DNA of 64,000 nt from an uncultured Gemmatimonadaceae bacterium (GCA_963829055.1 CAWHHI010000004.1:352001-416000), one strand, 5' to 3'; positions 2,292 to 64,000 are shown, counted from the stretch's first letter. The notes: a model not told the origin generated them from the sequence alone. Translations and numbers: made by a program.

Positions 2292-2994
2292 TCAGGTGGC
2301 TCCCGGAGTGGACTTGGCGGTCCACTCCATGCGCCACTGCTTCACGACCCATCCCGAGTCGGACCGCTCGACGCTGAAGGTGTACCCGCCCGAGCTGTAG
2401 CCGTCGTAGTTGTACCCTGCGGCCGCCTCGGCGCGGTCGCCGGCGGAGAGGTCGATCGCGCCGACGGTGTAGAGCAGCGCGCGTCCAGCGACGGAGCGAC
2501 CCGGCGCGTTAGGCGTGAAGGTACAGGTCGACGCCCGGCGCGCTGGCGTGCGTGGTGTCGGCGAGCCGACGCACCATCGCCTCCGACGGATCGGCGCGAT
2601 CCTGCGACGTCGACGCCTTCTTGAAGTCGTCGGTCGAGAGGCTCAGGCAGAACGCCGACGCGAGCGTCGAGAAGCCCGCGCGATCCTTCTCGAGCAGGTT
2701 GTGGAAGACGACCTCGCGAATGGAGTCGAGCACGGGCGACTGCGGGATGGTCGGCGCCGGACGACGCACGGGCGCCGGCGCGGCCGGCGGCGGCCTGGCG
2801 GTGCTGGCGCTGACGCCGCAGGTCGCGGCGCAGTAGTGTCGGCTGGCTTCGGGCGGCGTGAGGACCTTCGCCTTGACCTGCTGCGTGAGCGGCCGACGGA
2901 GAACGCGATCGCCAGAGCGCAAGGCGGATGGCGGACGGCTGACGGCGGATGCGGGAATGACAGCGAGCCAGCGGCTGAGCGAGTGATTGTTCAT
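2292..2994 (-). CDS. Hypothetical exported protein (frameshifted)
   Basis: ORF 2509..2994 continues in another frame as ...AGYNYDGYSSGGYTFSVERSDSGWVVKQWRMEW to TGA at 2292. Confidence 0.55.
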
Positions 2995-3187
2995 CGAACT
3001 ACCTGGAGAAGGGAAGCGTGCTCGGCCGCACGGGACCGAAGCACGCCGCGGGGACGGAGATTCTCCGCCCCCGCGGCTCTACGCAGGATGACCGTGCGGG
3101 TTGTCCGCCTTCAAGGTGTTCGGTCACATTCGGATTGAACCGCGGCTCACCACTAACGGAGCGCGAAACGGGTGAAGCGCCGCGGGC

Positions 3188-3397
3188 ATGCTCGAGACAT
3201 ACTTCGGGCCGTGTCCAGCTGATCGCAGCCGCTCATCCCAACGCCGTCGCCGGCTGAGGCCACGGCCCCGGCAGGATCACGGGCAAGGCTGCGGACGTCT
3301 GCGACATCTGCGGTCTCGGACCGCCTCGTCTGGCGCAACTGCAAGCTCACTGTGCACGAACTGTCGATCGATCGTCAAGAGTTGCGCTGACCTGTGA
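3188..3397 (+). CDS. Small Cys-rich zinc-finger-like protein
   Basis: Reconstructed across two indels as CDICG-SDRLVWRNCKL-CTNCRSIVKSCADL. Confidence 0.55.
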   Translation: MLETYFGPCPADRSRSSQRRRRLRPRPRQDHGQGCGRLRHLRSRTASSGATASSLCTNCRSIVKSCADL

Positions 3398-3454
3398 CCG
3401 ACCCGACGTCGACGACTCGACAGTGCCAGTCGACGGCCACGCCATCATCGCCGC

Positions 3455-4311
3455 ATGGACTATCGCGAGCTGACCCCGGCTCCGGCGCTGCGGCCGATAC
3501 ATCCGGTGCTATTGGACCCTCCGCGCGCCGACGCGCCCGAGGCGTCGAGCCGCGCAGCGGGTTCTGCCGGACGGCTGCGTCGAGATCATCATCAACCTCG
3601 GCGCACGCAGTTCCTCCGCCACGACGCGGCCGGGCCGGACCGAGCGGCAGCCGCGCGACCCTGGTGGTCGGGCCGACGACGCGACACATGTCGATCGCGC
3701 CCACCGGCGTCGATTCGACTCGTCGGCATTCGCTTCGCCCCGGGTGGTGCGGTGCCGTTTCTGTCCGTCTCGCCGCTGGAGGTTCGCGATGCCGCGCCTG
3801 CGCTCGACGGACGTCGGCTTCGCCCTTCGAGCCGGCACTCGCCGAGCGTCTCGCGGCCGCGCTCGCCCGGCACCGAGGCCTCGATTCTCGACACCGCGTT
3901 CGCGCCGACGGCTGGACCGCGCGCGGCGGCTCACCGACCGGCGGGTCTGGCGTCCGTGCGCGCAGCGTTTGCCGCGACATCACCGCTCTCGCGTCGACGC
4001 GCTCACGTGCGCTCACCGGCTCGGCGCACGGCAGCTCGAGCGGCAGTTCCGCGACAACGTCGGATTCGGCCCAAAGACGCTCTGCCGGCTCGCGCGCTTC
4101 CAGCGCGTCGTGCGCGCCATCGAGCCGTCGAACCGGACCGTCTCGTGGGCGCGGCTCGCGGCGCAGCATGGGTACGCGGATCAGTCCCACCTCGCCCGGG
4201 AGTTCCGCGAGTTCGCCGGCACGACCCTCACGGACTACGTGCGCGAGCTTCATCCAATGTCCGATCACTTTCACACCGGCACCGCTCGGCGACGACCTGG
4301 CCGCCGGCTGA
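3455..4311 (+). CDS. AraC-family regulator (DUF6597-type N-terminus)
   Basis: MDYRELTPAPALRP, VLPDGCVEII, GIRFAPGG, RQLERQFRDNVGFGPK, GYADQSHLAREFREFAG. Confidence 0.88.
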
Positions 4312-4453
4312 CGGTCCGCGGCGATGTCGGATTCATCCAAGACGACGCGCGTCGTCGGTAAGCTGTCTCGAGCCTGCCTCGGACGCGTGATCGTTCCCAC
4401 CGACCGTCGGGCCACGGCAAGCCGATTCACGTCGACTTCACGAGAGTGTACGC

Positions 4454-4940
4454 ATGCGTCATTCGATTCCGCTTATGGCCGTCTCGCGACGGGCGCCGCG
4501 ATCGGTGTTCACTCTGGGCCCGCAGCTGCACCGGCGCCACCGCTGTCCGCCATCGCGTTCATGACCGGCTGCTGGACCGGACCATCGCCGAACGGTGCGA
4601 CGATCGAGGAGCACTACAGCGAGCCGTCCGAGAACCTGCTGATCGGCATGACGCCGCTACGTGCGGACCGGGCGCGTGGTCGACTTCGAGTTCACGACCG
4701 TCGAGCGGACCGACTCGTCGTTCGTCATGACGCCACGGCCGAAGGGCGTGAAGTCCGACTGCTTCCCGCTCAAGGAAGTCTCCGACGGTCGCGCGACGTG
4801 GGAGAACCTGAAGCACGATTTCCCGCAGCGCATCATTTATCGGCGCGGGCACCGACGGCTCGCTCATCGCGCGCATCGAGGGAACGACGCCGAGCGGGGA
4901 GCGTCACATGGAATGGACCATGCACCGCTGCGCACGTTAG
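4454..4940 (+). CDS. DUF6265-like exported protein
   Basis: AFMTGCWTG...IEEHYS...WENLKHDFPQRIIYRR; frameshifted. Confidence 0.7.
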
Positions 4941-4966
4941 GCGGGATCGGCGCGCACCTACCGTGA

Positions 4967-5009: not shown

Positions 5010-5064
5010 CGTGGCACATCACGTCTTCCTGGTGTTGCGTCACGCTGACCCGCGTTAGGCTCGA

Positions 5065-6000
5065 TCAGGGTGCAACGGTGATGACCGCGGACGCGGGCTT
5101 CCCATCCGCGGTCACGGTGGCGACGGGCTTGTTCGAGCTAACGCCACGCCCGTCTCGAGCCCGGTCGACGAGACCGTGGCGATCGACGCGTTCGATGTCG
5201 ACCAGCTGACCGTGCGCCCAGTCAGAGGGTTGCCGCTTGCATCTTTCAGCGTGGCGGCTAGTTGGAGCGTGAGTCCCTGCGAGACTGGCTGGGATCCCGC
5301 TGGCGTGATGGCGACATTGGGCGCGGGCGCCGGCACGATGTCGATCGTCGCCGTGCCGCTGACCTGGTCCTGCACGGCTTGCGCGGTGATGATTGCGCGG
5401 CCTAACGAGGCGCCGACGACGACGCCGGCGCCGTTCACTGTCGCGATCCCAGGGTTCGAGGTCGAGAACGCAATCAATCGACCCGAGAGCGCCAATCCAT
5501 CTTTGTCGCTCACCACGACGGTGAGCGGGACTGGTGTACCGATCGGCACGGACGTCGACGACGGGGACAGAACGACGGAATTCACGAGCGGCTGGACGTT
5601 CATGGTCGCGTGCGCCGTTGCCCCATTCACCTGAGCAACGATGACCGTCGCGCCTATCGCGACGCCCGTCACCGTGCCGTTCGCATCGACGGCGGCGACG
5701 TTCGGATTCAGGCTCGACCACGCGACTGTACGGTCCGTCACCCTGTTGCCGGACGCGTCTCGCAATTCGATCGTATACCTGTACGTCCTGCCGAGACGAA
5801 CGGAGTCGATGGCCGCCATCCCTGACGATCGCCGTCACTTTATTTTGGGTCGATGCCGCCCCCTCCTTACAGCCAACGAGCCCGACCGCGATTGCTGCGA
5901 GGGGCAGAACAGCACGACCAAGGAGGGTCGTAGTACGGATGCGTTCCAAGCCGTCGACTGCGCGAGGCAGACCGACGCGCGACATGCGCAAAACGTGCAT
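5065..6000 (-). CDS. Lipoprotein with tandem bacterial Ig-like (Big_2) domains
   Basis: GAGGAG RBS, lipobox LVGC, three repeats of the type WSSLNPNVAAVDANGTVTGV / FSTSNPGIATVNGAGVV / WSTSNASIATVSSTG. Confidence 0.8.
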   Translation of the reverse strand: MHVLRMSRVGLPRAVDGLERIRTTTLLGRAVLPLAAIAVGLVGCKEGAASTQNKVTAIVRDGGHRLRSSRQDVQVYDRIARRVRQQGDGPYSRVVEPESERRRRRCERHGDGRRDRRDGHRCSGEWGNGARDHERPAAREFRRSVPVVDVRADRYTSPAHRRGERQRWIGALGSIDCVLDLEPWDRDSERRRRRRRRLVRPRNHHRASRAGPGQRHGDDRHRAGARAQCRHHASGIPASLAGTHAPTSRHAERCKRQPSDWAHGQLVDIERVDRHGLVDRARDGRGVSSNKPVATVTADGKPASAVITVAP

Positions 6001-6240: not shown

Positions 6241-8328
6241 TCAGGCGCCTACGCCGAGTGGCGACCGTGACGCGCGCTCGAGTTGCGACGGAAGCGCCGC
6301 TGGATCGCTCGTCGGCTCCTCGCACAGGTACTGACGGCACACGTACGCCGTTGCCTGATCGTCTCGCGGCGGCTTGTCCGCGAGCAACGCGATACGCACC
6401 GCCGCCGTCTGCTGCTGGCGCGGCCCCGCCGGCGATGACGAGCGACGGGACGTAGTGCGCTGCCGACGGCGTCGGCGAGCGCGCGGAAATCGTCCGCGGC
6501 AGGGATCACCGGCGAGCGCGACTTCGACCGCGCCGTGCACGGCCATGTCGGCGGCGCCGAGCATGTGCCCGAACGCCGGCGCATAACGAGCGAGCGGCTC
6601 GCTCAGCGACTCGAGCACGCGCATCGCGCGCTCGCCGCCGCGCGTCATCGCCGAGGAGCTCGGCCAGGCGGAGCAGCAGGTCGACCGCGAGCGACGTCCC
6701 GGCAGGGACGGCGTTGTCCGTGATGTCGCGCGGCCGCGTGAGCAGCGTCTCGTGGTCACTGGCGGTATCGAAGTACGCGCCAACGCTCTCGTCCCAGAAC
6801 CATCGTCGACCGCGTCAGCGATGGTGCGCGCGGCGTCGAGCCACCGACGGTCGAACGTCAGCCCGTAGACGTCGAGGAATCCGAGCGCGACGGCGGCGTG
6901 GTCCTCGAGGTAGCCGGCGATCCGCGTCACGCCGGCGGTGTGCGATCGCATGACGCGACCGTCGCGGACCATTTCCCGCAGCAGGAACTCGGCATTCCGC
7001 ACCGCGAGCGCGCGGTAGTCGTCGCGACCGAACGCGCGCGCCGCTTCCGCGATCGCCGCGAAGCATGAGGCCGTTCCACGCGGCGAGGACTTTCTCGTCG
7101 CGACCAGGCCGCTCGCGCCGCGCGCGTCGTGCCAGCAGTGCCGCGCGCGCATTGGCCACGGCCTCGGCCACGTCAGCCACCGGCACGCCGGCGCGCGCCG
7201 CGACCACGCCGCATCTCGTGCGGCGCGTGCAGAATGTACTTTCCTTCGAAGTTCGGTTCCTGCGCGACGCCCCAGTACGCGGTCGCGAGCGACCCGTCCT
7301 CGCCTAACGCGCGCTCGAGCTCGTCGCGCGTCCAGACGTAGAACGTTCCCTCGTGGCCCTCGCTGTCCGCGTCGAGCGAGGAGTAGAAGCCACCGGCTGG
7401 CGACGTCATCTCGCGCGCGACCCAGTCGATCGTCTCCTCGGTCACGCGACGTACTTCGTCGTCGTGCGTCGCCTGCCAGAGGTGCACGCCCAGCCGCGAC
7501 AGCAGCGCGTTGTCGTACAGCATCTTTTCGAAGTGCGGCACGAGCCAGATGGCGTCCACCGCATAACGATGGAAGCCGCCGCCGAGCTGATCGTAGATGC
7601 CGCCGCGCGCCATCTTGCGGAACGACGTCGTCGACCATCTCGAGCGCGTAGTCGGTGCCGGTGCGGCGCCAGTAGCGCAGCAGGAAGTCCAGCGTCATCG
7701 CCTGCGGAAACTTCGGCGCGCCATCGAAGCCGCCGTTCCGGGCGTCGTAGCGCTGCGCGATCGTCGCGATACGCGCGCTCGAGCGTCGTCGCCGTGAGCT
7801 GCGCCGGTGGAGCGGGTCGGCAGCGCTCGTGCTCGCGTAGAGCTCGCGCATGCTTCGCCGCGGTTTCGTCGACACTGCTCGCGCCGAGTCCGATACGCGT
7901 CCGCGACGGCCTGCAGCACGCGCCGGAACGACGGCATGCCGTGCCGGTCGTCCGGCGGGAAGTACGTGCCGGTGTAGAACGGCACGCGTGTCGGGCGTGA
8001 GGAACACTGTCATCGGCCAGCCGCCATGACCGGTCATCGCCTGCGTCGCCTGCATGTAGATGCTGTCGAGGTCCGGACGCTCCTCGCGGTCGACCTTGAT
8101 GTTCACGAACAGCTCGTTCATGAGCCGCGCGGTCTCCTCGTCCTCGAACGACTCGTGCGCCATGACGTGGCACCAGTGACACGCCGCGTAGCCGATGCTG
8201 AGGAGGATCGGCTTGTCTTCCCGCCGCGCCCGCTCGAGCGCCTCCTCACCCCACGGATACCAATCCACCGGGTTCTCGGCGTGCTGCGCGAGGTAGGGGC
8301 TCGTTTCGTTCGCGAGGCGGTTGGGCAT
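6241..8328 (-). CDS. YyaL/SPATA20-like thioredoxin-domain protein (DUF255)
   Basis: [61 protein letters not shown]. Confidence 0.93.
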
Positions 8329-8478: not shown

Positions 8479-9814
8479 TCAGCCAACGGCCTCATCGATG
8501 ATGACCCGGCGCATCGTGCGGCCGAGCCTAACGCGGACGCGCGCGAGCAGGATGAGCGCGACGGCGGCGAGCCCGACGACGATGCCCCACCAGAGGCCAA
8601 CGGCGCCGCCGCCGTAGCGGAACGTGAGTACCCAGCTCACCGGCAAACCGATCAGCCAGAAGCCCACGACGTTGATGATCGCTGGCGCATGCGTATCGCC
8701 GATGCCGCGGAGCACGCCGGCTGCCACGGCCTGCAGGCCGTCGAACACCTGGAACACGCCGGCGATCGGAATCAGCGTGGCGGCGAGCGCAATGACCGTC
8801 GGCGTCACCCGTGTACGACGCGCGCGAGTGCGGCGGGGAAGAGCCGGAACGCGAGCGCGCTCACGCACATGAACGACGTGCCGATGAAGATGCCGGCGAT
8901 GGCCGATCGTCGGGCCGCGCCTCGTCACCCGCGCCGATCGCCTGACCGACGAGCACCGCCGTCGCGGTCGAGACGCCGAGCGGCACCATGAACGTGAACG
9001 ACGCGAGGTTGATGGCGATCTGGTGCGCCGCCATCTGACGTCGTGCCGAGCACACCCATGAGGAGCGCGGCGGCGGCGAACGCGCCGTATTCGAGCAGGT
9101 ACTGCAGCCCGATCGGAAGTCCGAGGCGCAGCATCCGAATCGAGCGGGCCGATCGCGGCAGTCTCTGGTCGCCACGGCGTCAGGTCGGTGCTAGAGCTCT
9201 CGCCCGGAAATCGCGAGCAGCAGCAGCGCCATCACCCAGCGGCTGATGCTCGTGGCGAGCGATGAACCGCCGACGCCCAGCGCCGGCGAGCCGAGGTTGC
9301 CGTAGATGAACACCCAGTTCAGTCCGGCGTTGAGCAGGTTCGCGACGCAGCACGGTCCACAGGACCGGCGCCACGCGGCCCATCGCCTGCAGCGATTGTC
9401 GGAACACGATGAACGCGTAGAACGGAAACACGCCGGGAATCGCAATGCGCACGTAGCGTCGCCGCGTCGGGGATGACTTCCGGCGGCTGCCCGAGCAGCG
9501 TCAGAGCACCCACGTGACGGGCACGAACGTCGCGCACGTGACGACGGTCAGCGCGAGCGCAGAGCACGAGCCCGCGTTGGAGCGCGCGCGAGATCGCCTC
9601 CTCGTCGCGCGCTCCGACGCTCTGCGAGATGACCGGGTCGAGGGCCATGAGCGTGCCCTGTCCGAAGATGCCGGCGATGAAGAAGTAGAGGTTGCCGAGC
9701 GCCGCGGCTGCGAGCGCCGACGGGCGATACGTGACCGACCATGATGGTGTCGATGACACCCATCGCCATGATCCCGAGCTGCACGGCGGCGACGGGCAGC
9801 GCGAGCCGAAGCAT
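8479..9814 (-). CDS. MATE family efflux transporter (frameshifted)
   Basis: LALPV...[58 protein letters not shown]. Confidence 0.92.
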
Positions 9815-10044: not shown

Positions 10045-11426
10045 ATGACGTCAGACCTCGATCGCTATCTCACTGAGCACGACGCCGCATCCACGATGAG
10101 CTGTTCGATCTCCTGCGCATCCCGAGCGTGAGCGCGCGCTCCGAGCATGCGGCCGACGTGCGGCGGGCGGCCGAGTGGGTGCGGGACTCGCTCGCGCGCA
10201 TCGGCTTCGACGCGTCGCTCCACGAGACGCCCGGTCACCCGATCGTCCTGGCGGAATGGCGAAAGGCTCCCGGCGCGCCGACGATCCTCGTCTACGGGCA
10301 CTACGACGTGCAGCCGGCCGAGCCGCTCGACCTGTGGGAGTCACCGCCGTTCGAGCCGACGATTCGCGATGGGCGCATCTACGCGCGCGGGTCGGTGGAT
10401 GACAAAGGACAGCTCTTTCTCCACGTGAAGGCGCTCGAGGCGCACCTGGCCGTTCGCGGCAAGCTGCCCGTGAACGTGATCGTGCTCGCGGAAGGGGAAG
10501 AGGAAGTCGGCAGCGAGAACCTCGAGCGACTTCATCGCCGCGAACGCGAAGCGCCTCGCCGCGGACGCGGTCGTGATCTCGGACTCGTCGATGTTCGCGC
10601 CGGGCCAGCCGTCGATTCTGTCGTCGCTGCGCGGGCTCGCGTACTTCGAGATCAACGTGACCGGTCCGACCGTCGATCTGCACTCGGGGAGCTACGGCGG
10701 CGCCGTCGTGAATCCGGCGACGGCACTGGCGCGCATCATCGCGACGTTCCACGACGAGAACGGCCACATTGCGATTCCCGGGCTTCTACGATGCGGTGCG
10801 CGATTGGGGCGACGACGCACGCGCCGCCATTCGGAAGCTGTCCGTTCGACGAGCACGGGTTTCCAGCACGAGACGGGCGCGCCGGCGTTAGGCGGCGAGA
10901 ACGGGTACTCGACGCTCGAGCGGATCTGGACTCGGCCCACGTGCGAGGTGAACGGTCTGCTCAGTGGCTATACGGGCGAGGGCGCGAAGACGGTGCTGCC
11001 GTCGAAGGCGATGGCGAAGGTGAGCTGCCGTCTGGTGCCGGATCAGAAGCCGGACGGAGATCGGACGCCTGATGGAGGCGCACGTGCGCCGCGTCGCGCC
11101 GAAGGGCGTGACGGTGACGGTGGAGCACCTGCACGGTGGACGTCCGTGGCGCGCGGAGCTGAATGGCCCGGTGTTCGACGCCGCGCGTCGCGCGCTGGCG
11201 GCCGCGTTCGGGCGCGAGCCGGTGATCGTGGGCGAGGGCGGATCGATCCCGGTGGTCGGCGACTTCCAGCGCATCCTCGGCACCCCGGTGCTGCTCATGG
11301 GCTTCGGGCTGCCCGGGCGAGAACGCGCACGCGCCTAACGAATGGATGAGCGACGAGAACTTCGTGAACGGCGCGAAGGCGGTCGCGGCGTTCTGGGACG
11401 AGCTCTCGACGAGCTCGCGGAGCTGA
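10045..11426 (+). CDS. M20 family dipeptidase
   Basis: [47 protein letters not shown]. Confidence 0.92.
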
Positions 11427-11661: not shown

Positions 11662-12290
11662 ATGAAACGCTTCGTACTTCGCACCTCGATGTTGGCGCTC
11701 GCCGCCATCGTCGTCCGCGATTCCGCTGGCCGCGCAGCAGGCCAAGCCGACAGTGTTCGACGTATCCCGTACGCCGGCTACATGATGTTCGGCAAGCTGT
11801 TCGAAGGGCCCGATCGGCACGAGCGTGTCGGCCGGTAGCGGCCCGGTGTACGGTGCCCAGATGAGCCTAACGATGGCGAAGAACGTCGCCCTCTACGGCA
11901 ACGTGGGCTACTCGAGCTCCGACCTGAAGATCGGGCTCCCGATCATCGGTGGACTCGACGTCGGGCTCGAGCAAGGCGCTCCTGTACGACGGTGGCGTCG
12001 AGCTCAAGATCCCCATGCAGGCCGCATCAATGGTGACGCCGTTCGTGCAGGGTGGTGTCGGCGCGATTCGCTACGAGGTCTAGTCCGGTTTCCTGAACAC
12101 GAACGCCACGAACGTCGCGTACAACTTCGGCGGTGGCGTCGACGTGCAGCTCAGCCCGAACTTCGGCGTCCGGCTCATGGCGAAGGATTACCTCGGCAAG
12201 TTCGACTTCAAGGAAGCCACGTCGTTCGACCTGAACGGCAAGACCACGAACAACGTCGCGCTGACCCTCGGCGTGAACTTCGGGTTCTAG
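11662..12290 (+). CDS. Outer-membrane beta-barrel protein
   Basis: GGAGG RBS, signal peptide, alternating beta strands (PFVQGGVG, YNFGGGVD), C-terminal Phe (GVNFGF). Confidence 0.75.
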
Positions 12291-49194: not shown

Positions 49195-49223
49195 GGCATG
49201 GTGCACGGTAGAAGCGTCGGTGC

Positions 49224-51039: not shown

Positions 51040-51281
51040 TTAGTTCAGAGTCCGGCGATGAGCCAGCGTCGATGCAAAGCCGTATCCGGCCGTTTTCCGT
51101 GTCATCCGCCAGATCGTAGTTCCCACCGGCCGCGGCGCGATGATGCCTCGGACAGCAAGAACCCGAAAGTATTCGCCACTCCACTTCATAGGTTGTCGCG
51201 TGCCTGACGTGATCCGCGCTCGATCCGCTACACGTTAGGCAAAACAGCAATCAACCTTCTCGAACGTGGAGTGAACCTGCA

Positions 51282-53526: not shown

Positions 53527-53576
53527 GTATGCAGGATCACGGGTGCGGACGCGGGCACGTTAGGCCGCAGCGACCG

Positions 53577-55262: not shown

Positions 55263-56995
55263 TCATCATGCGCGCGACGAGCGGAACCGGAATCGACCCG
55301 TAACCGAGCAGCTCGTCGTGAAACCGCCTGAGCGAGAACGCGCGCCCCTTCACGCCGCTTGCATCTCGGCTCGCAGGTCGTGAATCGCCTGCGTGCCTAA
55401 CCAGTACATGATCGCCGTACACGGAAACATCGAATTCTTGACGGCCTCGGCCCGCGCGGCGTCGGTCGCTCATTCCGACCTGCTCGACGTAGAACCGCAC
55501 AGCATCCGTCGAACGACATCGTTCGCTGATGCAGCTCGATGTCGACGATCGCCCGCGCGAGCAAGCGCACGCGCGAGTGCTGCTGCGACACGCGCTCGAG
55601 CGGCGTGAGGAACCCGAGCTCCTCCATGAGCTCCGTCGCGTAGCACGCCCACCCCTCGGCCATCGTGCCGCCGCAGAACATGCCGATGCGGTTCGCGCAG
55701 TCGACGGCGGCGACCTTGCCCGACGCGCGATCGCGTGCTGATGATAGGCGTGCCAGTTCTGCACGTGATGGCCGATCGCGCCGTGGTGCACGACGTGATT
55801 CAGCTTGATCGTGCTGTGGTTCCACACGCGGAGATGCTGCTCGGCCGCGTCGGGCTCCGCCGGCAAGCGGCGGCACGACGTAGTCGTACGTCGTGTACGG
55901 GTCGAACGGCGCCGGCGATCGGTAGTACAGATAGTAGAGGTACGGCGCGGCGTCGGCGGTCCACGCGGGGAAGGGGACGTAGCGAATGGGCCAGTCGGGC
56001 CAGTGACGACGTTCGCCGCCTCGGCGCGCTCGCGGCACGCGCGCCCACGTCTCGTGAAAGCCTCGAGAGTACTCGTCAGGCGACGGGTGATCGGCCGCGA
56101 GCTGGGCCTGCACGTCCTGCCCACGAGCCGGCGACCGTCGCGCGCCATCGCGTCGAGCTCGCGCGCGCTCGGCCGTCGAATCGCTCGCGCACCTCGGCGA
56201 GCAGGTCGGCGCGCGAGCGCGTGCAGTGATGACCGCGCGAGAGCAGCAGGTCGAACAGCTCGGGGCCGCACGCCATCGCCGTCGTCGGGAGCCGCCGGGT
56301 GGCGCCCGCAGCCAGCGTCGCGAACGCCCGAAGCGCCGGCTCGCGCTGCGCGGCCGCGTGATGCAGCACTGCGATCGCGTGCGTCGGCGCCGAGCGCGAT
56401 CCACGCCGCGATCCATCGTCGCGATGCCGCTGCCCGAGCAGATCGCGGCGCGCCTGTCGCACATCGCGCAGTGCGCGCGGTCGACGTCCACGGCTCGTCG
56501 GCGAGCGGCGCGACCGACGGCGACGCCTGGCTCGTCGACGCAGTGTCATGCCACGCGGCGTCGAGGAACGCCGGCAATGCCTCGAGCCGTCGCAGCCGCG
56601 ACTCGATCCGCTTCGCAGTCGGCGCGAAGTCGCGGATCATCAGCGAGATGATCGAGAAGACCGCTTCGCCCGTCCACAGCGCCGGATTCCCTCGCGGCCC
56701 ATGCAGGCTCGCATTCTCCGCGCGCTGAATCTCGAGAAAGCCGCGCGCGAGCTCGGCGTCGAGCAGCTCCGGACTGTTCGCGAAAGCCGCGGCGCGACGC
56801 CGGCGCCGGATACTCGCGCGCGAGCTGCCGCGCCTAACGACTGCATCTCGTCGTCCAGCGCCGCGAGCCCGTCGGGCGACCAGTCGGGAAGCCGGTCGTC
56901 GTAGTCGTGCACGCCGGTGAACGTCGCGTTCACCGGACGCCGCGCGTAGTAGTGGTCGAAGAAGTCGTCGATGCGCCGTCACGCCGCTGCGCTCA
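55260..56995 (-). CDS. DUF885 family protein (paralog 2, frameshifted)
   Basis: PVNATFTGVHDYDDRLPD, NHVVHHGAIGHHVQ, MAEGWACYA, FHDELLGYGSIP. Confidence 0.75.
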
Positions 56996-58140
56996 CCGGG
57001 CCAGCGGAATCGACACCCAACGCCGCTCGCGAAACGACAGCTCCACGGCGTTGATCAGCTCCTGCACGTGCGCGCCGTCCTCGAAGTTGCCCTCGTTCTC
57101 CGGGCCGTCGCTCAGAATCTCCGAGATGAACGAGCTGCACGAGGTTCGCGTAGAACAGCGATCGCCACGACTCGCGCTTGCTGCCGCCCGGCGGATAGAA
57201 CCGCTCGGGCACGTCGAGCTCGCGGAACTCGACCTGGTCCGCCGTCGCCGCCTTGAGCGACTCGCAGATGCCATTCTCCTCGACGAGCCGGCAGATGAGC
57301 GCGCCCTTGCTGCCGTAGACGCGCGCCTCGAGCCCCGGGTAGTTCCCGACGGTCACGAAGCTCGTCTGAATCGAGCCTAACGCGCCACTCGCGAACTCGC
57401 CGATGAAGATGTCGCCGTCGTCGATGTTCATGCGCATCATCTGACCCGTCGCGCGCACGACGCGCTCGGGGATGAAATTCTTCATCGTCCCGACGACCTG
57501 GCTGAACCGGCTGCCCATGAACAGGTGCCCGAGGTCCATGATCGGCGCGCCGTAGCCCTCGAGCGACGACACCTGAATCACCGACTGATCGGCCTCGTGA
57601 TCCACCTGACGCAGCGGGTTCTGCGGATCGAGCCACTGCGAGTTCTGCTCGTAGCCGTTGAAGATGAACGGCGTGCCGACGAACCCCTGGTCGATGAGCT
57701 CCTTCATGTACTGCATCGCCGGACTGTAGCGGAACGTGAAGCCGAGCTTCGTCTTCACGCCCTTCTCGCTTCGCGAGCGCCGCGGCGCGCAGCGTGTCGC
57801 GATAGTCGTACGCGACCGGCTTCTCGCACAGCACGTGCTTCCCCGCCTCGAGCGCCGCCCAGCTCAGCTCGAAATGCGTCGCGCTCGGCGTGCAGACGTC
57901 GACGAGGTCGATGTCGTCGCGCGCGATCAGCTCGTCGTGCGAGTCGTACACGTTGGGTATGCCGAACTTCTCGGCGAACGCCCGCGCGCGCTCGACGACG
58001 GGATCGGCGATGGCCACGAGCTCGCAGCGCGGGTCGCGCTTGTAGCCGGGCAGGTGCGCGAACTCGGCCCACGCGCCGGCACCGAGCACGCCGACGCGCA
58101 CGCGCCCGTCCACGCGAGCTTTCGCTGACGCGGTCGTCAT
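56993..58140 (-). CDS. Gfo/Idh/MocA family oxidoreductase
   Basis: VGVLGAGAWA, DLVDVCTPSATH, GKHVLCEKP, GFTFRYSP. Confidence 0.92.
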
Positions 58141-59894
58141 TCGATCACCGCGCCCGTGTCGCCCGGCAGCAGCAGCTGACGTTGCGCCCAGATCGGCGCG
58201 ATGCCATTCGTCATGAATCGCTCGTGGAATTCGCGCAGTGAGAACTTCGCGCCCATGCGCTTCTGGTAGTCCGCGCGCAGCTTGAGGATCGCGCGCTTGC
58301 CGAGGAAGTAGCCACCGTACGTCGGGTCGTACGTCGCCGCGCTCGGCCTCTCGCTTCGCGGCGGGCGCGGCGACGTACGCGTCCTTCTCGAAGCAGCGCT
58401 GCGCATCGGCGAGCGTCCACTGCTTCGTGTGCAGCTTGATGCCCGACAGCAGCCGACAGATGCGCGTCAGCGCGTCGCTCACCTGCGCGAGGCGCAGCTT
58501 CGGATCGCCGTTCCGATAGCCCTTCGTCGAGCACCATCTGCTCGGCGTAGTGCGCCCATCCGTCCTGACCCGACGACGGCTGCGGAAACGGATTCAGCCC
58601 GATCCAGATGCGTCGCACCTTGCCGGGCGTGCGACGCATGTAGGTCGAGTGCAGCCAGTGCCCCGGCATCGCTTCGTGCGCGGACGTGTTCGTCAGCGAC
58701 GCGTAGTTGTACCGCTCGAGCCACGCCTCCTGCTGCGGCTGGCGACAGTCCCGGCTGCGCATCCGTGATGTAGTAGATGCTCTTCACCGGCGTCTTCTCG
58801 AGCGGCGGCGACGCGTGCATCGACGCGAAGCCGAGGTCGAACGGCAGCGCCGGCGCGACGATCACGCGTTCGTTAGGTGGCAGCGACGCGATGCCGCGCG
58901 CGACGACGAACGCCGACAGCGAGTCGACGATCGCCTGCGTCGCGGCGACGACGCCGCCCATCTTCGGGTGATCGCGTCCGCACGTCCTGCCAGACCGTCA
59001 CGGGATCTCGCGCCCGGGGCGAGCTTTGCCGCGGCCGCACGAAACTCGGCCTGCGATCGCGTCAGCTCGCGCTCGCCGATCGCGACCATCGTGTCGAGCG
59101 GCGTGTCGATCAGCTCCTCGGCGAGATAGCGCCGAGCGACGTTCGCCGCGCCGATCGTGAAGTCGCCGGTCGCCTTCGGAATGACGTCTTCTCGAGGTAC
59201 GCGACGTACGCGGCGATCTGCGGGATGGCGACATCGGCCGCCCGCCGCAGCGAATCGCGCAGCGCAGCGTTAGGCTCGGAGGCGAAGGCGAGGTCGAGAT
59301 CGTGACCGAGCATGTCGTGCGCGCCGCGCATGATCGCCGCACCACGCTCGGCGAAGAGGCGTGGCGGGTTGATGACGTTCGTCCTCGCGGCGGCGAGGAA
59401 CGCCGGACGCTGACGCGAGCTTGGCTGATGATCCGACGCATGCGAACCGGCGCGGGATCGCTCGCCATCGTCATCAGATTGTGCACGCCGTCGGCGAGCG
59501 CCGACGCGTAGAGCATTGGATTCCGCGCCAGTTCTGGAGCGTCTCCTGCTCGAGCAGCCACCCGTCGATGATGCCGAGCAGGATGCGCTGATCGACGCGC
59601 TCGTCGGGCGTGAGGCTGTTCGCGTCGAAGCGCGCGAAGTCGGGCGGCATCGCGCTTGAGCGCCGCGATCTCGGCCGCGATTCCCGCGGCCGAGAAGTCG
59701 TCGAGCCGATCGTCGTGGTCGTGAATGCCGTTTCCGGCGGCGATCGACGGATGGCGCCGCGCGAAGTCGTCGAGATATCGGTCGACGAATCGCGCGAACT
59801 CCGTGGACTGCTGCGGCTGGGTGGCGCCGAGCGGAACGACCGCGAGCGCGATGAGCAGGAGACGCGTGAGTGATCTCAAGGCGACGATCTGCAC
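58137..59894 (-). CDS. DUF885 family protein (paralog 1, exported; frameshifted)
   Basis: Signal peptide; GIHDHDDRLDD, AHEAMPGH, DGWAHYAEQM, YFLGK, FHERFM. Confidence 0.8.
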
Positions 59895-62224: not shown

Positions 62225-62307
62225 GGACGGGACGGGCAGCGGGACGGGATCTGGCGACGGGAGCCGGTAGAGGCCTTCCGGTCTCCCGTTCCCGTTCCCG
62301 TCCCGGC
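62224..62307. terminator. Imperfect hairpin of GGGACG/CCCGTT hexamer tracts between convergent genes
   Basis: gggacgggacggg...acgggagccgg / ccggtctcccgttcccgttcccgtccc. Confidence 0.5.
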
Positions 62308-62309
62308 AG

Positions 62310-62825
62310 TTAGATCTTCGGCTGTCGTACGCCCAGTGCAACAGCGCCTGCCGCTGTCGCCTCCGACACGTTAGGTCTCGCGGCCGGCAGCCGCGTCTTG
62401 ACCTGCGCCACGTGTCGCGCGATCTGACGCCACCGGCGAATCTGCCGGTCGTCGTCGAGGCAGCGACGTCCCAGGTAGTAGCGGCAATACCACTGGAACC
62501 AGCCGCGCGGGTCCTCCTCGTAGATCCACCCCTTCTTTCGCCACACCGCGAGCGGCTGCGACGCGCGCACGCCGAAGTAGTTGAGCTTCGCGTCGTATCG
62601 CTCGGGCGAGAGCTTCGCCCGCGCGAACCAGCTCGCGGGAAACTCGCCGCGGCAGTCCGTCATGTACTTCCCGCCGAACACGCCTAACGCGAGCATCTCG
62701 GGCGGCGTGAGCTGTGGCTCGAACCCAGACTCGAAGTTGCGGCCGGTGGGCTCCGTGAGAAGATACGTGTAGCCCTGCTGCATGAGGTCATTGACGACCA
62801 TGCGGCGGGGCTTCATGCGAGACAT
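62310..62825 (-). CDS. Conserved hypothetical protein
   Basis: LTPPEMLALGVFGGKY, DPRGWFQWYCRYYLGRR, RQALLHWAYD. Confidence 0.75.
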   Translation of the reverse strand: MSRMKPRRMVVNDLMQQGYTYLLTEPTGRNFESGFEPQLTPPEMLALGVFGGKYMTDCRGEFPASWFARAKLSPERYDAKLNYFGVRASQPLAVWRKKGWIYEEDPRGWFQWYCRYYLGRRCLDDDRQIRRWRQIARHVAQVKTRLPAARPNVSEATAAGAVALGVRQPKI

Positions 62826-63548
62826 GCTTCCTCGAACCGCTTTCGGAGCTCTGCCCAACCACTCACCGCGATCTCCGGCGCGTCAGAGTGGACCGCGTTA
62901 GGCGGGCGCAGCCAGACGGCCGCGAATCCCGGCCGCCTGTGCGCCCGCGACATCCGTATCCAGCCGGTCGCCCACGAACCAGATGTCACTCGGCGCGAGT
63001 CCAAGTCGCGCGGCCGCGGTGTCGAACAGCATGGGATTCGGTTTCCGGACGACGTAGTCGGCCGACACCATCACGAATGCGAGATGGGCTGCGAGGCCGT
63101 GTTTAGCGAGGTCGCGCCGGATCACGTCGGCGCTGAACGACGCGTTGCTGACGACCGCCATGAGCACGCCCGCCGCGTGAAACGCGTCCAGCGCCTCGCG
63201 CGCGCCCGGGATTGGGCGCGTCGCCATCGACGCATCCCAGAACCCGCGCTCGAGCTCCGCCATCGACAGGCGAAACCGCGTACCCAGGTAGTCGTGAATG
63301 AGGCGCGTGAGTGAAGTCCACGGCGCCTCGACGCCGAATTCGTCGCGTCGCTCGGAGACTTCGGCCAACACGCGCTTCGCGCGCGCCATCACCACGTCGA
63401 CGGTGACATCAGCGCGCAGGTTCGTCGCCTGCGCGAGCAGCCACTCGTTGCCGGCGCGCAGGTCGAACCGACCCTCCTCCACGAGCGTCCCGCCGTAGTC
63501 GATCAACAACCCCTTCGGCCGTCTCACGCGTTGGGGCTGCTCGGTCAC
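62813..63548 (-). CDS. HAD-family hydrolase
   Basis: LIDYGGTL, VVSNA, KPNP, FVGDRLDTDVAGA. Confidence 0.88.
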
Positions 63549-63570
63549 TCGGCGTTCCTCGTCCGCGTCC

Positions 63571-64000
63571 TCATGGCGCGACGGCGGCAGGCGCGCGCAG
63601 CAACTTCGCGCGATCCGCGCCGGTGAACAGTCGGCCGTTGGCGACGACGGCCGAGATGCGTCGCGTGTTGCCGATGTCCTGGAGCGGATTCGCATCGAGC
63701 AGAACGAGGTCCGCGAGCTTCCCGGTGGCGATCGTGCCCGCGGAATCGAGCATGCCGAAATACCGCGCGGGCTCGATCGTCGCCGCGCGCAGCACCTCGA
63801 ACGGCGACATCCCGCCGCGAGCGAGCAGCGTCATCTCCTCGTGCAAGGCCGAATCCCGGCGGACTGTTGCGCAGCGGGGCGTCCGTGCCGGTGAGGATGT
63901 GCACGCCGGCGCGCTGCATCGTCGCGACCTGACGCAGCCGCTTCTCGAGCATCGCGCGCCCAACCGAGTCGGCGTTAGGCGGGATGCTGTCCGGCATCGG
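63571..64000 (-). CDS. Amidohydrolase family protein, C-terminal part (partial)
   Basis: ILTGTDAP, LHEE, ATIEPA, GTIATGKLADLVLLDANP. Confidence 0.88.
   Translation of the reverse strand, partial: RCRTASRLTPTRLGARCSRSGCVRSRRCSAPACTSSPARTPRCATVRRDSALHEEMTLLARGGMSPFEVLRAATIEPARYFGMLDSAGTIATGKLADLVLLDANPLQDIGNTRRISAVVANGRLFTGADRAKLLRAPAAVAP

What the first reader, a model, noticed from the sequence alone, without database searches (positions are those of the whole stretch)
2507..63980. Pervasive dispersed octamer CGTTAGGC/GCCTAACG: candidate uncharacterised genome-wide DNA signal
Seen: a hand count gives 44 exact copies, about one per 1.5 kb. 24 are CGTTAGGC (2507, 4935, 5053, 10886, 13716, 15253, 21936, 29151, 31515, 34194, 35710, 35736, 36897, 38371, 39586, 47774, 48070, 50486, 51233, 53558, 54178, 59268, 62896, 63973). 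20 are GCCTAACG (5400, 7302, 8526, 11333, 11865, 16730, 22234, 24567, 29652, 29837, 42358, 43542, 43992, 44276, 45266, 49222, 53046, 56832, 57375, 62682). One-mismatch variants also occur (e.g. 12327, 16160, 20889, 33791, 37717, 58871, 62369). Base composition at about 69% GC predicts roughly 2 copies. The motif sits inside conserved genes in different frames and forces codons rare at this GC: TTA Leu (KSLGL at 29837, LTLGD at 50486), AGG Arg (VRVRL at 8526) and CCT-AAC (APNA at 29151). It also supplies stop codons at 4935, 35736, 38371 and 49222. The conserved Leu in OCD FKSLGL argues against a simple basecalling substitution. Established: dispersed motifs without strand bias that override codon bias include DNA uptake sequences (Neisseria, Pasteurellaceae) and cyanobacterial HIP1, whereas Chi and KOPS are strand-polarised. 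GTTAGGC also fits the integron core consensus GTTRRRY. Inference: an uptake, recombination, methylation or nucleoid-protein signal. I know of no description of it for this lineage.
Basis: partly seen in the sequence, partly recalled or inferred. Interest (0 to 1): 0.85.

Follow-up and report, generated by a model that had tools for sequence, protein, structure and literature searches.

The report
Hyper-abundant DNA word in Gemmatimonadaceae
This soil bacterium and about four in ten genera of its family have written the 8-letter DNA word CGTTAGGC thousands of times into genes and spacers against normal codon choice, much like the self-DNA uptake tags of Neisseria and Haemophilus; the word equals the conserved end of integron gene-cassette sites, and what reads it is unknown.

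Summary
All 44 copies sit at the stated coordinates, against 0.91 expected. The genome holds 5004 copies, 0.64 per kb, with equal numbers on the two strands. In called genes there are 3195 copies against 137-170 after synonymous-codon shuffling. It is not a base-calling artefact: fragmented MAGs of the same genus and k141/k255-named contigs carry it, and motif-poor relatives have ordinary codons at the same residues.

The organism is a Gemmatimonadaceae MAG. In the family sample, 72 of 201 genomes and 32 of 77 genera are enriched, up to 1.34 per kb. Elsewhere in the phylum sample only one genus is enriched.

The word has sharp 8-bp limits and no replication polarity. Copies avoid each other below about 500 bp. 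Positions turn over between species.

I read it as a DUS/USS/HIP1-like word spread by a directional drive, most likely biased DNA uptake plus recombination. Uptake was not tested.

The word is letter for letter the R' core of integron attC sites in relatives. Neither IntI, the only DNA methyltransferase found, an extra FtsK, nor PilQ tracks its abundance.

Earlier notes of this scan report the same word in other genomes.

The parts
2507..2514 (+). CGTTAGGC copy; its TTA is the TAA stop of the called gene 2509-2922 (-)
4935..4942 (+). CGTTAGGC copy near the 3' end of called gene 4661-4966 (+); TAG in one frame
5053..5060 (+). CGTTAGGC copy, weak coding signal around it
5400..5407 (-). copy read xCG-TTA-GGC (Leu-Gly) in the Big_2-domain gene 5112-5819 (-)
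7302..7309 (-). copy read xCG-TTA-GGC in called gene 7173-7613 (-)
8526..8533 (-). copy read C-GTT-AGG-C (Val-Arg, VRVRL) in called gene 8479-8808 (-)
10886..10893 (+). CGTTAGGC copy, local frame xCG-TTA-GGC
11333..11340 (-). copy whose + strand GCC-TAA gives the stop of called gene 11072-11338 (+)
11865..11872 (-). CGTTAGGC copy, local frame GC-CTA-ACG on the other strand
13716..13723 (+). copy whose CGT-TAG gives the stop of called gene 13314-13721 (+)
15253..15260 (+). copy read C-GTT-AGG-C (Val-Arg) in called gene 15014-15478 (+)
16730..16737 (-). CGTTAGGC copy, no gene called (frames left and right disagree)
21936..21943 (+). copy inside called gene 21916-22233 (-), near its 3' end
22234..22241 (-). 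copy directly upstream of the start of called gene 21916-22233 (-)
24567..24574 (-). CGTTAGGC copy, local frame xCG-TTA-GGC
29151..29158 (+). copy read G-CCT-AAC-G (Pro-Asn, APNA) in the PALP-family gene 28780-29778 (-); only this genome has it, of those compared in the genus
29652..29659 (-). copy in the PALP-family gene; kept in all four genus relatives aligned there (G001, G002, G004, G005)
29837..29844 (-). copy read TCG-TTA-GGC (FKSLGL) in the ornithine cyclodeaminase-family gene 29729-30769 (-); genus relatives have another Leu codon and a Gly codon (CTC-GGT, CTC-GGC, CTC-GGG or CTG-GGA)
31515..31522 (+). CGTTAGGC copy in a spacer, just after an inverted-repeat element
34194..34201 (+). 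CGTTAGGC copy; kept in G005 and G002, CGTCAGGC in G001, unlike in G003
35710..35717 (+). first of three units 13 bp apart (CGTTAGGC, CGTCAGGC, CGTTAGGC) between two converging called genes
35736..35743 (+). third unit; its TTA is the TAA stop of called gene 35738-35929 (-)
36897..36904 (+). copy read G-CCT-AAC-G (Pro-Asn) in called gene 36475-36999 (-)
38371..38378 (+). copy whose TTA is the TAA stop of called gene 38373-38699 (-); lies next to an inverted-repeat element
39586..39593 (+). copy inside called gene 39446-39922 (-)
42358..42365 (-). CGTTAGGC copy, no gene called
43542..43549 (-). copy read xCG-TTA-GGC in the homoserine dehydrogenase gene 43137-44135 (-)
43992..43999 (-). second copy read xCG-TTA-GGC in the homoserine dehydrogenase gene
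44276..44283 (-). copy read xCG-TTA-GGC in called gene 44150-44554 (-)
45266..45273 (-). copy read xCG-TTA-GGC in called gene 45086-45601 (-)
47774..47781 (+). copy whose TTA is the TAA stop of called gene 47776-48051 (-)
48070..48077 (+). CGTTAGGC copy in a spacer
49222..49229 (-). CGTTAGGC copy, TAG in one frame; no gene called there
50486..50493 (+). copy read ACG-TTA-GGC (LTLGD) in the AraC-family gene 49900-50697 (+)
51233..51240 (+). CGTTAGGC copy in a spacer
53046..53053 (-). CGTTAGGC copy, no gene called
53558..53565 (+). CGTTAGGC copy, no gene called
54178..54185 (+). copy whose TTA is the TAA stop of called gene 54180-54443 (-)
56832..56839 (-). CGTTAGGC copy just below called gene 56979-57758 (-)
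57375..57382 (-). copy read xCG-TTA-GGC in the GFO/IDH/MocA-family gene 56979-57758 (-)
59268..59275 (+). CGTTAGGC copy, local frame G-CCT-AAC-G on the other strand
62682..62689 (-). copy read xCG-TTA-GGC in called gene 62310-62816 (-)
62896..62903 (+). copy whose TTA is the TAA stop of the HAD-hydrolase gene 62898-63548 (-)
63973..63980 (+). CGTTAGGC copy, local frame G-CCT-AAC-G on the other strand

Best explanation
CGTTAGGC is a genuine genomic word restricted to certain lineages. A directional process acting on the DNA itself, not on the proteins, writes it and keeps it in place. The most likely mechanism (inferred, not shown) is that of DNA uptake enhancing sequences. In that model a receptor of the natural-transformation machinery prefers double-stranded DNA carrying the word. 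Fragments with the word are therefore taken up and recombined more often, and word-bearing alleles replace word-less ones wherever protein constraint allows. The shown steps are the abundance, the codon override, the strand symmetry, the spacing, the turnover and the phyletic range. The inferred steps are uptake bias, the receptor, and recombination as the vehicle.
For: 1. Scale and sharpness.
- The genome holds 5004 copies, 2547 forward and 2457 reverse.
- Flanks carry at most 0.13 bit per position.
- It is the most peaked 8-mer in the genome.

2. It overrides coding.
- Genes hold 3195 copies against 137-170 in 10 synonymous shuffles.
- 1290 of 2771 TTA codons lie in the word.
- It occupies 1290 of 5764 [SPTA]-L-G contexts, 888 of 1925 P-N-[ADEGV], 592 of 2970 [SRCG]-L-T and 425 of 4476 V-R-[LPHQR].
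- It uses all four stop-free frames. The two stop frames occur only at gene ends, with 359 copies over a called stop.

3. It is made by substitution in place.
- Motif-poor G008 shares 0 of 61 aligned G000 sites and G016 shares 0 of 32. The modal distance is 2, for example TCG-CTC-GGC in place of TCG-TTA-GGC.

4. It is kept better than chance and also turns over.
- Against G004 (79.3% identity over 121.6 kb), 20 of 58 G000 sites and 20 of 30 G004 sites are shared. Control 8-mers are identical in 19.7% of cases.
- Against another genus, G014, only 5 of 33 G000 sites and 5 of 70 G014 sites are shared.

5. Copies interfere with each other.
- The chance of meeting the next copy is 0.125 per kb below 50 bp and rises to about 0.8 per kb beyond 500-750 bp.
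- From memory, even spacing is also reported for USS. HIP1 is called quasi-periodic in the abstract of PMC13756078.

6. There is no polarity.
- Counts are 975/919 where GC skew is above 0 and 1385/1382 where it is below 0.

7. The one-mismatch profile points to a specific reader.
- Inner positions are almost never varied: CATTAGGC 13, CGTTAAGC 24 and CGTTAGAC 24 copies.
- The end variants TGTTAGGC and CGTTAGGT are 9.5x and 11.3x over the shuffle.

8. The transformation gene set is present in G000.
- ComEC, DprA, three PilT and a PilQ-like secretin.
- A ComEA-like gene lies beside pilT and a pilB-like gene.

9. Density is 0.64 per kb here and up to 1.34 per kb in the family. From memory this is the range of DUS and USS.
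Against: - No uptake experiment exists and no receptor was found.
- The competence genes do not discriminate. A PilQ-like secretin is found in 195 of 201 family genomes, word-rich or not. I did not test ComEC, DprA or ComEA across the family.
- Inverted pairs acting as terminators, which as I recall are typical of DUS and USS, are nearly absent. Only 3 convergent pairs lie within 20 bp.
- I saw no dialects. Two motif-poor genera sampled (G008 200 kb, G016 170 kb) have no other peaked word.
- All enriched genera use the same word, which is unlike what I recall of the Neisseriaceae.
- The identity with the integron core is unexplained by this model.
- The three large word-free blocks cannot be used as evidence of foreign-DNA depletion, because they look like chimeric contig ends.
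- A cis-acting function under selection would give most of the same statistics.
Confidence: 0.45

Rival explanations
1. The word is a cis-acting chromosomal signal kept by selection. It would be the binding or loading site of a nucleoid, repair or segregation protein that needs one site every 1-2 kb. GATC for MutH in enterobacteria is an analogue I recall.
For: - Copies are evenly spread. All 20 contigs carry 0.48-0.80 per kb, and 10-kb bins have mean 6.4 and variance 6.5 even with the 14 empty bins included.
- Copies repel each other at short range.
- Sites are kept above the control rate.
Against: - Selection per site would have to beat codon bias at thousands of sites.
- Sister genera and even one congener do without the word. 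G124 has 0.013 per kb while three congeners have 0.87-0.97.
- No candidate protein was found.
- An extra FtsK-gamma paralogue does not go with the word. Nearly every genome has one match, including the word-rich genera g9, g55 and g56.
Confidence: 0.2
2. The word is linked to integrons. An integron integrase or a relative reads it because it is the R' core of attC. The dispersed copies would then serve as docking, decoy or recombination sites, or would couple DNA uptake to cassette capture.
For: - CGTTAGGC is the 3' end of about 100-nt attC hairpins (R'' GCCTAACA ... R' CGTTAGGC). These are spaced 500-600 bp apart on one strand, next to intI, in G021:C80, and in a like same-strand array on G019:C3.
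- It fits GTTRRRY. Only 16 of 65,536 8-mers contain GTTAGGC on either strand.
- IntI is common in the family, at 127 of 201 genomes.
- Published work shows that IntI inserts cassettes at genomic GWT sites (10.1101/2022.09.11.507474, passages read). It also shows that transformation feeds cassette recruitment (PMC12614218, abstract read).
- Earlier scan notes, untested here, report the same word in soil Verrucomicrobia.
Against: - IntI does not track the word. It is found in 52 of 72 rich and 74 of 124 poor genomes, and in 24 of 32 and 36 of 44 genera.
- Word-rich G123 (95% complete, 30 contigs) and G065 have no IntI hit at E <= 1e-40.
- Core variants that fit GTTRRRY are not tolerated: CGTTAGAC 0.17x, CGTTAAGC 0.05x and CGTTGGGC 0.44x.
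- More than 99% of copies have no attC partner or conserved flank. Only 25 hairpin-like R''..R' hits were found in the genome.
- The copies arise by substitution, not insertion.
Confidence: 0.12
3. The word is a product of biased repair or of methylation, like HIP1 with its methylases or like Vsr-driven CCWGG. An enzyme would convert near-copies into the word or protect word-bearing strands.
For: - HIP1, the other famous 8-mer, is tied to two methylases and to methylation-dependent transformation (PMC13756078, abstract read).
- The commonest variants are C-to-T changes at the two outer C positions.
Against: - G000 (85.9% complete) has no hit to PF00145, Vsr PF03852, PF01555 or PF02384.
- The single D12 adenine methylase has orthologues in 20 of 72 rich and 46 of 124 poor genomes. 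None was found in the densest genus, g9 (0 of 5).
- The typical gain needs two or three changes at different positions. One mismatch-specific enzyme would not do that.
Confidence: 0.08
4. The word is a base-calling or assembly artefact of a long-read MAG.
For: The assembly does have indel errors. The pilB-like and D12 methylase genes are split between frames. My gene caller covers only 73% of the genome, and completeness is 85.9%.
Against: - Six congeners, assembled into 260-1170 contigs, carry 2501-5112 copies each.
- Contigs whose names begin k141 or k255 carry it. As I recall this naming marks short-read assemblers. L024 has 3 copies in 6.1 kb and L014 has 9 in 21.1 kb.
- Logan contigs of 4 runs from 2017-2024 lie on window 28-48 kb. 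Among the 40 best-supported differences listed, none falls in any of the 16 copies there; 532 further differences were not shown.
- The word never interrupts a reading frame.
- It aligns to Leu, Pro-Asn or Val-Arg residues in relatives.
Confidence: 0.01

Closest known systems
DNA uptake sequences (DUS) of Neisseriaceae, read by the minor pilin ComP (recalled; DUES listing abstract 10.1101/2025.10.24.684340 seen)
   Same: Both are short non-palindromic words at about one per kb on both strands. Both lie in genes in every permissive frame and in spacers, are restricted to a lineage, and are kept better than neighbouring sequence.
   Different: This is a different word in a different phylum. No receptor is known, no dialects were seen, there are almost no inverted terminator pairs, and uptake is untested.
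Uptake signal sequences (USS) of Pasteurellaceae (recalled)
   Same: The density and strand symmetry are similar. Spacing is more even than random. An inner core is almost never varied while the outer positions are looser.
   Different: The word has no AT-rich phased flanks, and here the information stops at 8 bp. The receptor is unknown in both cases.
HIP1 (GCGATCGC) of cyanobacteria (PMC13756078, abstract and outline read)
   Same: Both are octamers, hyper-abundant across many genera of one lineage, quasi-regularly spaced, patchy in their absences, and now suspected to be uptake tags.
   Different: HIP1 is a palindrome read by two methylases. This word is not a palindrome, and no methylase tracks it.
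Integron core site GTTRRRY (R' of attC, R box of attI)
   Same: The 7-mer GTTAGGC is identical. The same 8-mer ends the attC sites of relatives' cassette arrays.
   Different: The dispersed copies are solitary. They lack the hairpin partner, an array and an adjacent intI. They tolerate none of the consensus degeneracy and do not track IntI.
Chi and KOPS/SRS; TraB recognition 8-mers of Streptomyces plasmids (recalled)
   Same: All are 8-bp words read on DNA by a motor or nuclease and over-represented genome-wide.
   Different: Chi and KOPS are co-oriented with replication, and this word is not. Its excess is far larger. No extra FtsK-gamma protein goes with it.

Membership tests
DNA uptake enhancing sequences (DUS/USS) | Short non-palindromic word far above expectation, about one per kb | tested here: met
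   There are 5004 copies at 0.64 per kb. The excess is 21-fold over synonymous shuffles. Motif-poor relatives have 0.001-0.01 per kb.
DNA uptake enhancing sequences (DUS/USS) | Equal on both strands, no replication polarity | tested here: met
   G000 has 2547 forward and 2457 reverse copies. Counts are 975/919 and 1385/1382 by sign of GC skew. Over 201 genomes the totals are 71,693 and 71,617.
DNA uptake enhancing sequences (DUS/USS) | Accumulates by point substitution in genes and spacers wherever coding allows | tested here: met
   The word uses four frames plus stop codons. Orthologous sites in motif-poor genomes carry ordinary codons.
DNA uptake enhancing sequences (DUS/USS) | Spacing more even than random | tested here: met
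   The hazard is 0.125 per kb below 50 bp and about 0.8 per kb beyond 500-750 bp. Gaps of 50 bp or less number 28 against 131 expected.
DNA uptake enhancing sequences (DUS/USS) | Related lineages carry altered dialects | tested here: not met
   All enriched genera use the same 8-mer. The G008 and G016 samples have no other peaked word. G010 has a weak CGTTTGGC excess, 43 against 33 copies, which I did not follow up.
DNA uptake enhancing sequences (DUS/USS) | Frequent inverted pairs forming terminators | tested here: not met
   There are 3 convergent and 0 divergent pairs within 20 bp, out of 4982 gaps.
DNA uptake enhancing sequences (DUS/USS) | Host has the transformation machinery | tested here: met
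   G000 has ComEC, DprA, PilT, a PilQ-like secretin and a ComEA-like gene. PilQ-like is found in 195 of 201 genomes, so it does not discriminate.
DNA uptake enhancing sequences (DUS/USS) | Word-bearing DNA is taken up preferentially; a receptor binds it | not testable with these tools
   This needs uptake or binding assays.
HIP1-type iterated palindrome | Palindromic word | tested here: not met
   CGTTAGGC and GCCTAACG differ.
HIP1-type iterated palindrome | Cognate DNA methylases co-distributed with the word | tested here: not met
   Four methylase or Vsr families give no hit in G000. Orthologues of the one D12 methylase occur in 20 of 72 rich and 46 of 124 poor genomes.
Chi / KOPS polar words | Orientation follows the replichore | tested here: not met
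   One search shows no polarity. Same-strand runs number 2415 against 2501 expected.
Integron attC / attI core site | Fits GTTRRRY | tested here: met
   GTTAGGC fits. It is identical to the R' of attC sites in G021 and G019.
Integron attC / attI core site | Part of an imperfect hairpin with an inverse core RYYYAAC 50-140 nt upstream | tested here: not met
   The flanks carry no information. Only 25 hairpin-like hits exist in the whole genome against 5004 copies.
Integron attC / attI core site | In a one-strand array beside intI | tested here: not met
   Strands are mixed at random. IntI is found in 52 of 72 rich and 74 of 124 poor genomes. The feature is met for the arrays of G021:C80 and G019:C26.
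REP / MITE-type repeats | Conserved sequence beyond the core, copies as insertions | tested here: not met
   The flanks are uninformative. Copies align codon for codon with relatives.

The most novel reading that the evidence does not exclude
The word is more than a third DUS-like tag. It is the integron attC core. Earlier notes of this scan, which I could not test, say the same word with a 5' T is hyper-abundant in soil Verrucomicrobia as well. If both hold, one conserved or transferable DNA-recognition module marks DNA across phyla of soil bacteria. That module would tie preferential uptake or recombination of tagged DNA to the capture of integron cassettes, each of which carries the tag at its boundary.
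Probability: 0.12. Interest if true: 0.9.

Novelty: new member of a known kind. Interest (0 to 1): 0.72.

Why it matters
The one preprint abstract I saw on the subject defines sequence-specific DNA uptake tags as those of two proteobacterial families (listing abstract of 10.1101/2025.10.24.684340). A 2026 paper proposes that HIP1 may be another (PMC13756078). A word with the same genomic signature in about 40% of the sampled genera of an abundant and mostly uncultured soil family would widen that picture. It would suggest that preference for self-DNA in transformation is more widespread than thought.

It also offers practical uses:
- a ready marker for binning and for spotting chimeric contigs;
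- through its identity with the integron core site, a testable link between DNA uptake and cassette exchange.

Tried and rejected
- **Sequencing artefact:** rejected. One search is only partial support, because 532 differences were not shown.
- **Chi/KOPS polarity:** rejected.
- **Longer hidden motif or mobile element:** rejected.
- **Apparent one-strand runs in other genomes in the listing:** this is most likely a listing order (forward hits first, capped), not polarity. I did not check it further.
- **Dialects in motif-poor genera:** none in the G008 and G016 samples.
- **C5 methylase plus Vsr, N4/N6 and type I/IIG methylases:** no hits in G000.
- **D12 methylase as reader:** rejected on phyletic pattern.
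- **IntI as the discriminating factor:** rejected. Fisher p = 0.09 without phylogenetic correction.
- **A truncated IntI N-terminal fragment at G000:C4:2850-3281:** it looks like a remnant, and I did not pursue it.
- **Extra FtsK/TraB-like gamma-domain protein:** rejected.
- **PilQ as a marker of competence:** uninformative, at 195 of 201 genomes.
- **Word-free blocks as horizontally acquired islands:** rejected. The three largest lie at or within 5.5 kb of contig ends. They carry housekeeping genes including a second FtsK, and two of the three differ in G+C. They look like chimeric joins or contamination.
- **An attC array beside G000's own intI:** my first impression did not hold. Those sites do not fold as attC.
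- **Pilin candidates as receptor:** four were found, but the one examined is garbled by a frameshift, so I made no search with it.
- **Cross-phylum recurrence in Verrucomicrobia:** I had no handle for that phylum, so it is untested.

Full report
**Observation**

One search finds 44 exact copies of CGTTAGGC in the 64-kb window, 24 on the + strand and 20 on the - strand. One hundred dinucleotide-preserving shuffles give a mean of 0.91 and never more than 5. So are the peptide contexts FKSLGL, LTLGD, VRVRL and APNA.

The window is G000:C4:352001-416000 of a 7.78-Mb assembly in 20 contigs with 66.7% G+C. The whole assembly holds 5004 copies, 2547 forward and 2457 reverse, or 0.64 per kb. That makes the word the 14th most frequent canonical 8-mer, among words made only of G and C. 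All 20 contigs carry it at 0.48-0.80 per kb.

**The word is exactly eight bases**

A position table of all 5004 copies shows at most 0.13 bit at any flanking position. The preferences are slight: not C before the word, and G after it. A score that compares each k-mer with its one-mismatch neighbours ranks CGTTAGGC first among 8-mers. Longer k-mers add nothing.

**It is not explained by coding**

No gene finder was on hand, so I wrote a crude codon-model caller. It gave 6615 genes covering 73% of the genome. That fraction is low because the assembly has frameshifts.

Called genes contain 3195 copies. Ten within-gene synonymous-codon shuffles give 137-170 copies. That null is generous, because it keeps the rare codons the word itself supplies.

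The word uses the four frames that have no stop:
- xCG-TTA-GGC: 1287 copies
- G-CCT-AAC-G on the other strand: 882 copies
- GC-CTA-ACG on the other strand: 588 copies
- C-GTT-AGG-C: 423 copies

The two stop-containing frames occur only at gene ends, where 359 copies cover a called stop codon. A frame test that ignores gene calls finds no class of copies interrupting a continuous frame among its 20 commonest classes.

The word accounts for 1290 of 2771 TTA codons. It occupies a large share of the peptide contexts that can hold it:
- 1290 of 5764 [SPTA]-Leu-Gly
- 888 of 1925 Pro-Asn-[ADEGV]
- 592 of 2970 [SRCG]-Leu-Thr
- 425 of 4476 Val-Arg-[LPHQR]

**It is not an artefact**

The assembly does have indel errors. 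Even so:
- All six other genomes of the genus carry 2501-5112 copies, although they are assembled into 260-1170 contigs.
- Named MAG contigs of Gemmatimonadota around an acetate kinase homologue carry the word. Some have names beginning k141 or k255, which as I recall marks short-read assemblers. L024 has 3 copies in 6.1 kb and L014 has 9 in 21.1 kb.
- Twenty public runs from 15 studies hold window 28-38 kb.
- Logan contigs of four of these runs (2017-2024) lie on window 28-48 kb. Among the 40 best-supported differences listed, none falls in any of the 16 copies there. A further 532 differences were not shown, so this is partial support.
- At the protein level the word aligns with Leu-Gly, Pro-Asn, Leu-Thr or Val-Arg in relatives.

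**Who has it**

The record titles place the organism in Gemmatimonadota, among Gemmatimonadaceae MAGs.

In an even sample of 201 family genomes from 77 genera:
- 124 genomes have fewer than 0.02 copies per kb. Most have 0.001-0.01 per kb, which is below the count of the reversed control word.
- 72 genomes have at least 0.05 per kb, and the highest has 1.34 per kb.
- 32 of the 77 genera contain at least one enriched genome.
- Density is roughly a genus trait, but it can differ sharply within a genus. In g56 the values are 0.013 against 0.87-0.97. In g69 they are 0.23-0.36 against 1.28. In g23 they run from 0.05 to 0.42.

In a phylum sample of 251 genomes, the only enriched genomes outside the family are five from one genus (g110) of a sister family, with 181-1061 copies. 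The 81 genomes of nine further families are all at baseline, with 70 copies or fewer. One further genome of a third family (G030, 345 copies) was seen.

These tallies include unpublished genomes: G013, G051, G052 and G150 in the family sample, and G013, G254, G281 and G351 in the phylum sample. G052 is counted among the 72 enriched genomes. No conclusion depends on any of them.

Samples of two motif-poor genera (G008 200 kb, G016 170 kb) show no other peaked word, so I see no dialects. A 143-kb sample of G014 shows the same 8-mer at 1.04 per kb.

**How copies arise and persist**

I aligned G000 genes to the fetched samples with tblastn.
- Motif-poor G008 shares none of 61 aligned G000 sites, and G016 shares none of 32.
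- The commonest state at those sites is two substitutions away, with the same amino acids in ordinary codons. For example, TCG-CTC-GGC or TCG-CTG-GGC stands in place of TCG-TTA-GGC.
- Over all codons the word touches, the amino acids are identical at 25 of 61 sites (G008) and 11 of 32 sites (G016). The word is therefore often bought with a residue change.

Within the genus I compared G000 with G004, at 79.3% identity over 121.6 kb. G004 shares 20 of 58 G000 sites, and G000 shares 20 of 30 G004 sites. Control 8-mers are identical in 19.7% of 27,702 cases.

In the window itself:
- The copy at 29652 is kept in all four genus relatives aligned there.
- The copy at 34194 is kept in two of four.
- The copies at 29151 and 29837 are private to this genome.
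- Relatives have copies at 25921, 28876 and 33791 where this genome has none.

Between genera, 5 of 33 G000 sites are shared with G014, and 5 of 70 G014 sites with G000. Control 8-mer identity there is 7.1%.

Copies are therefore made in place by substitution, kept better than chance, and turned over.

**Spacing and orientation**

Gaps between neighbouring copies have a mean of 1530 bp and a median of 1101 bp. Short gaps are rare:
- 50 bp or less: 28 observed against 131 expected
- 51-150 bp: 107 against 302
- 151-300 bp: 318 against 419

The hazard of meeting the next copy rises from 0.125 per kb below 50 bp to a plateau near 0.8 per kb beyond 500-750 bp.

Orientation is close to random. There are 2415 same-strand runs against 2501 expected. 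Orientation does not follow GC skew: counts are 975/919 where skew is positive and 1385/1382 where it is negative. Close inverted pairs are almost absent.

Against the synonymous shuffle, a few one-mismatch words are enriched: TGTTAGGC 9.5x, CGTTAGGT 11.3x, CGTTATGC 3.9x, CGTTAGGG 2.9x and CGTCAGGC 2.4x.

Changes at the inner positions are very rare. Genome-wide there are 13 copies of CATTAGGC, 24 of CGTTAAGC and 24 of CGTTAGAC. G-to-A on one strand is the same mutation as C-to-T on the other. The contrast between inner and outer positions therefore points to a reader with a strict inner core GTTAGG and looser ends.

**The integron link**

In motif-poor relatives the few copies cluster on one strand every 500-600 bp. 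Each ends a repeat of about 100 nt that folds as a typical attC hairpin, with R'' GCCTAACA at one end and R' CGTTAGGC at the other. On G021:C80 the array lies beside intI, and two more copies lie beside the intI of G019:C26.

The dispersed copies are not attC sites, for four reasons:
- Their flanks are uninformative.
- Only 25 hairpin-like R''..R' hits exist in the whole genome.
- The copies near G000's own intI (C20:208041-208958, at the family cut-off) do not fold as attC.
- Core variants that the consensus allows are depleted.

IntI at E <= 1e-40 is found in 52 of 72 enriched and 74 of 124 baseline genomes, and in 24 of 32 and 36 of 44 genera. It does not discriminate.

Published work shows that IntI can insert cassettes at genomic GWT sites (10.1101/2022.09.11.507474, passages read). 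It also shows that natural transformation feeds cassette recruitment (PMC12614218, abstract read). A functional link is therefore conceivable, but I have not shown one.

**Search for a reader**

- G000 has no hit to C5 methylases, Vsr, N4/N6 methylases or N6_Mtase.
- It has one D12-class adenine methylase, split by a frameshift. Its orthologues occur in 20 of 72 enriched and 46 of 124 baseline genomes. None was found in the densest genus, g9.
- A PilQ-like secretin is nearly universal, at 195 of 201 genomes, with none over the curated cut-off.
- FtsK-gamma domains number one per genome almost everywhere.
- G000 has ComEC, DprA, three PilT, and a ComEA-like gene beside pilT and a pilB-like gene.

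**Interpretation**

The statistics match those of DNA uptake enhancing sequences and of HIP1. The word is hyper-abundant, specific to a lineage and symmetric between strands. It is forced into genes, spaced more evenly than chance, has a strict core, and turns over.

I commit to a molecular drive through biased uptake and recombination as the most likely mechanism, with confidence 0.45. The interference range of a few hundred bases fits a model in which a second copy near an existing one gains little, because both travel on the same fragment. That fit is an inference.

The rivals are:
- a cis-acting chromosomal site under selection (0.2);
- an integron-linked reader (0.12);
- biased repair or methylation (0.08);
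- an artefact (0.01).

**Literature**

Two searches for the word itself and for uptake sequences with Gemmatimonad* found nothing relevant. A search for methylation motifs with Gemmatimonad* returned two papers whose listed abstracts do not concern this word. Two broader searches on uptake sequences found the HIP1 paper and a DUES preprint. The listing abstract of that preprint names only Neisseriaceae and Pasteurellaceae. I did not look at supplements.

**Earlier notes of this scan**

The scan found this before on other DNA. Notes e1-7736792 and e1-7737463 describe the same word in other Gemmatimonadota genomes, and the second also notes the integron core. Several notes (e1-3001758, e1-3023500, e1-3029997, e1-4067893, e1-3987626) describe TCGTTAGGC in soil Verrucomicrobia. 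I could not test the cross-phylum claim. It is a lead that raises the weight of a shared or transferable reader.

Noticed in passing
window 31326-31477, 38231-38364, 55186-55198: An inverted-repeat element of about 130-150 nt has ends TGTCATTCCGAGCG ... CGCTCGGAATGACA and an inner GAGGAATCGCGA/TCGCGATTCCTC pair. The 10-mers of its ends occur about 700 times in the genome. Metagenome contigs pile up on it, with 212-482 word depth in bin 38006-38672. It looks like a MITE or REP-type family. One copy abuts the CGTTAGGC at 38371.
   Followed up: partly
G000:C6:5440-55037, C11:1-46789, C6:591808-623330 (outside the window): Three blocks of 31-50 kb have no copy of the word, and all lie at or within 5.5 kb of contig ends. 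Two of them have G+C of 0.70-0.73. They carry housekeeping genes, including a second FtsK, where nearly every family genome has one. They are probably chimeric joins or contamination, so word density could serve as a check on bins.
   Followed up: partly
G000:C12:490840-494800 and C8:134570-135700; window genes in general: The assembly has frameshifts. A pilB-like ATPase, the ComEA-like gene and the D12 methylase are each split between frames. This explains the short genes and the 73% coding fraction from my calls.
   Followed up: partly
L081-L085 (G021:C95, C80, C43; G019:C3; G029:C1): Relatives have large integron cassette arrays with near-identical attC sites of about 100 nt; G029:C1 has copies but no such repeat. 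Strongly one-sided counts in many genomes of the sister family (for example 6 against 62, and 71 against 20) suggest such arrays are common there. IntI is found in 127 of 201 family genomes.
   Followed up: partly
window 35710-35743: Three units lie 13 bp apart (CGTTAGGC, CGTCAGGC, CGTTAGGC) in the spacer between two converging called genes. This is one of the rare close clusters.
   Followed up: no
L112-L121 (G010:C2, C13): In the weakly enriched genome G010 the one-mismatch word CGTTTGGC (43 copies in 200 kb) is as frequent as CGTTAGGC (33 copies). It could be a variant word.
   Followed up: no
G000:C18:97494 (55 nt): A near-perfect palindrome is bounded by an inverted pair of the word (GCCTAACG ... 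CGTTAGGC), with a DNA folding energy of -32.6 kcal/mol. It is one of very few terminator-like pairs.
   Followed up: no
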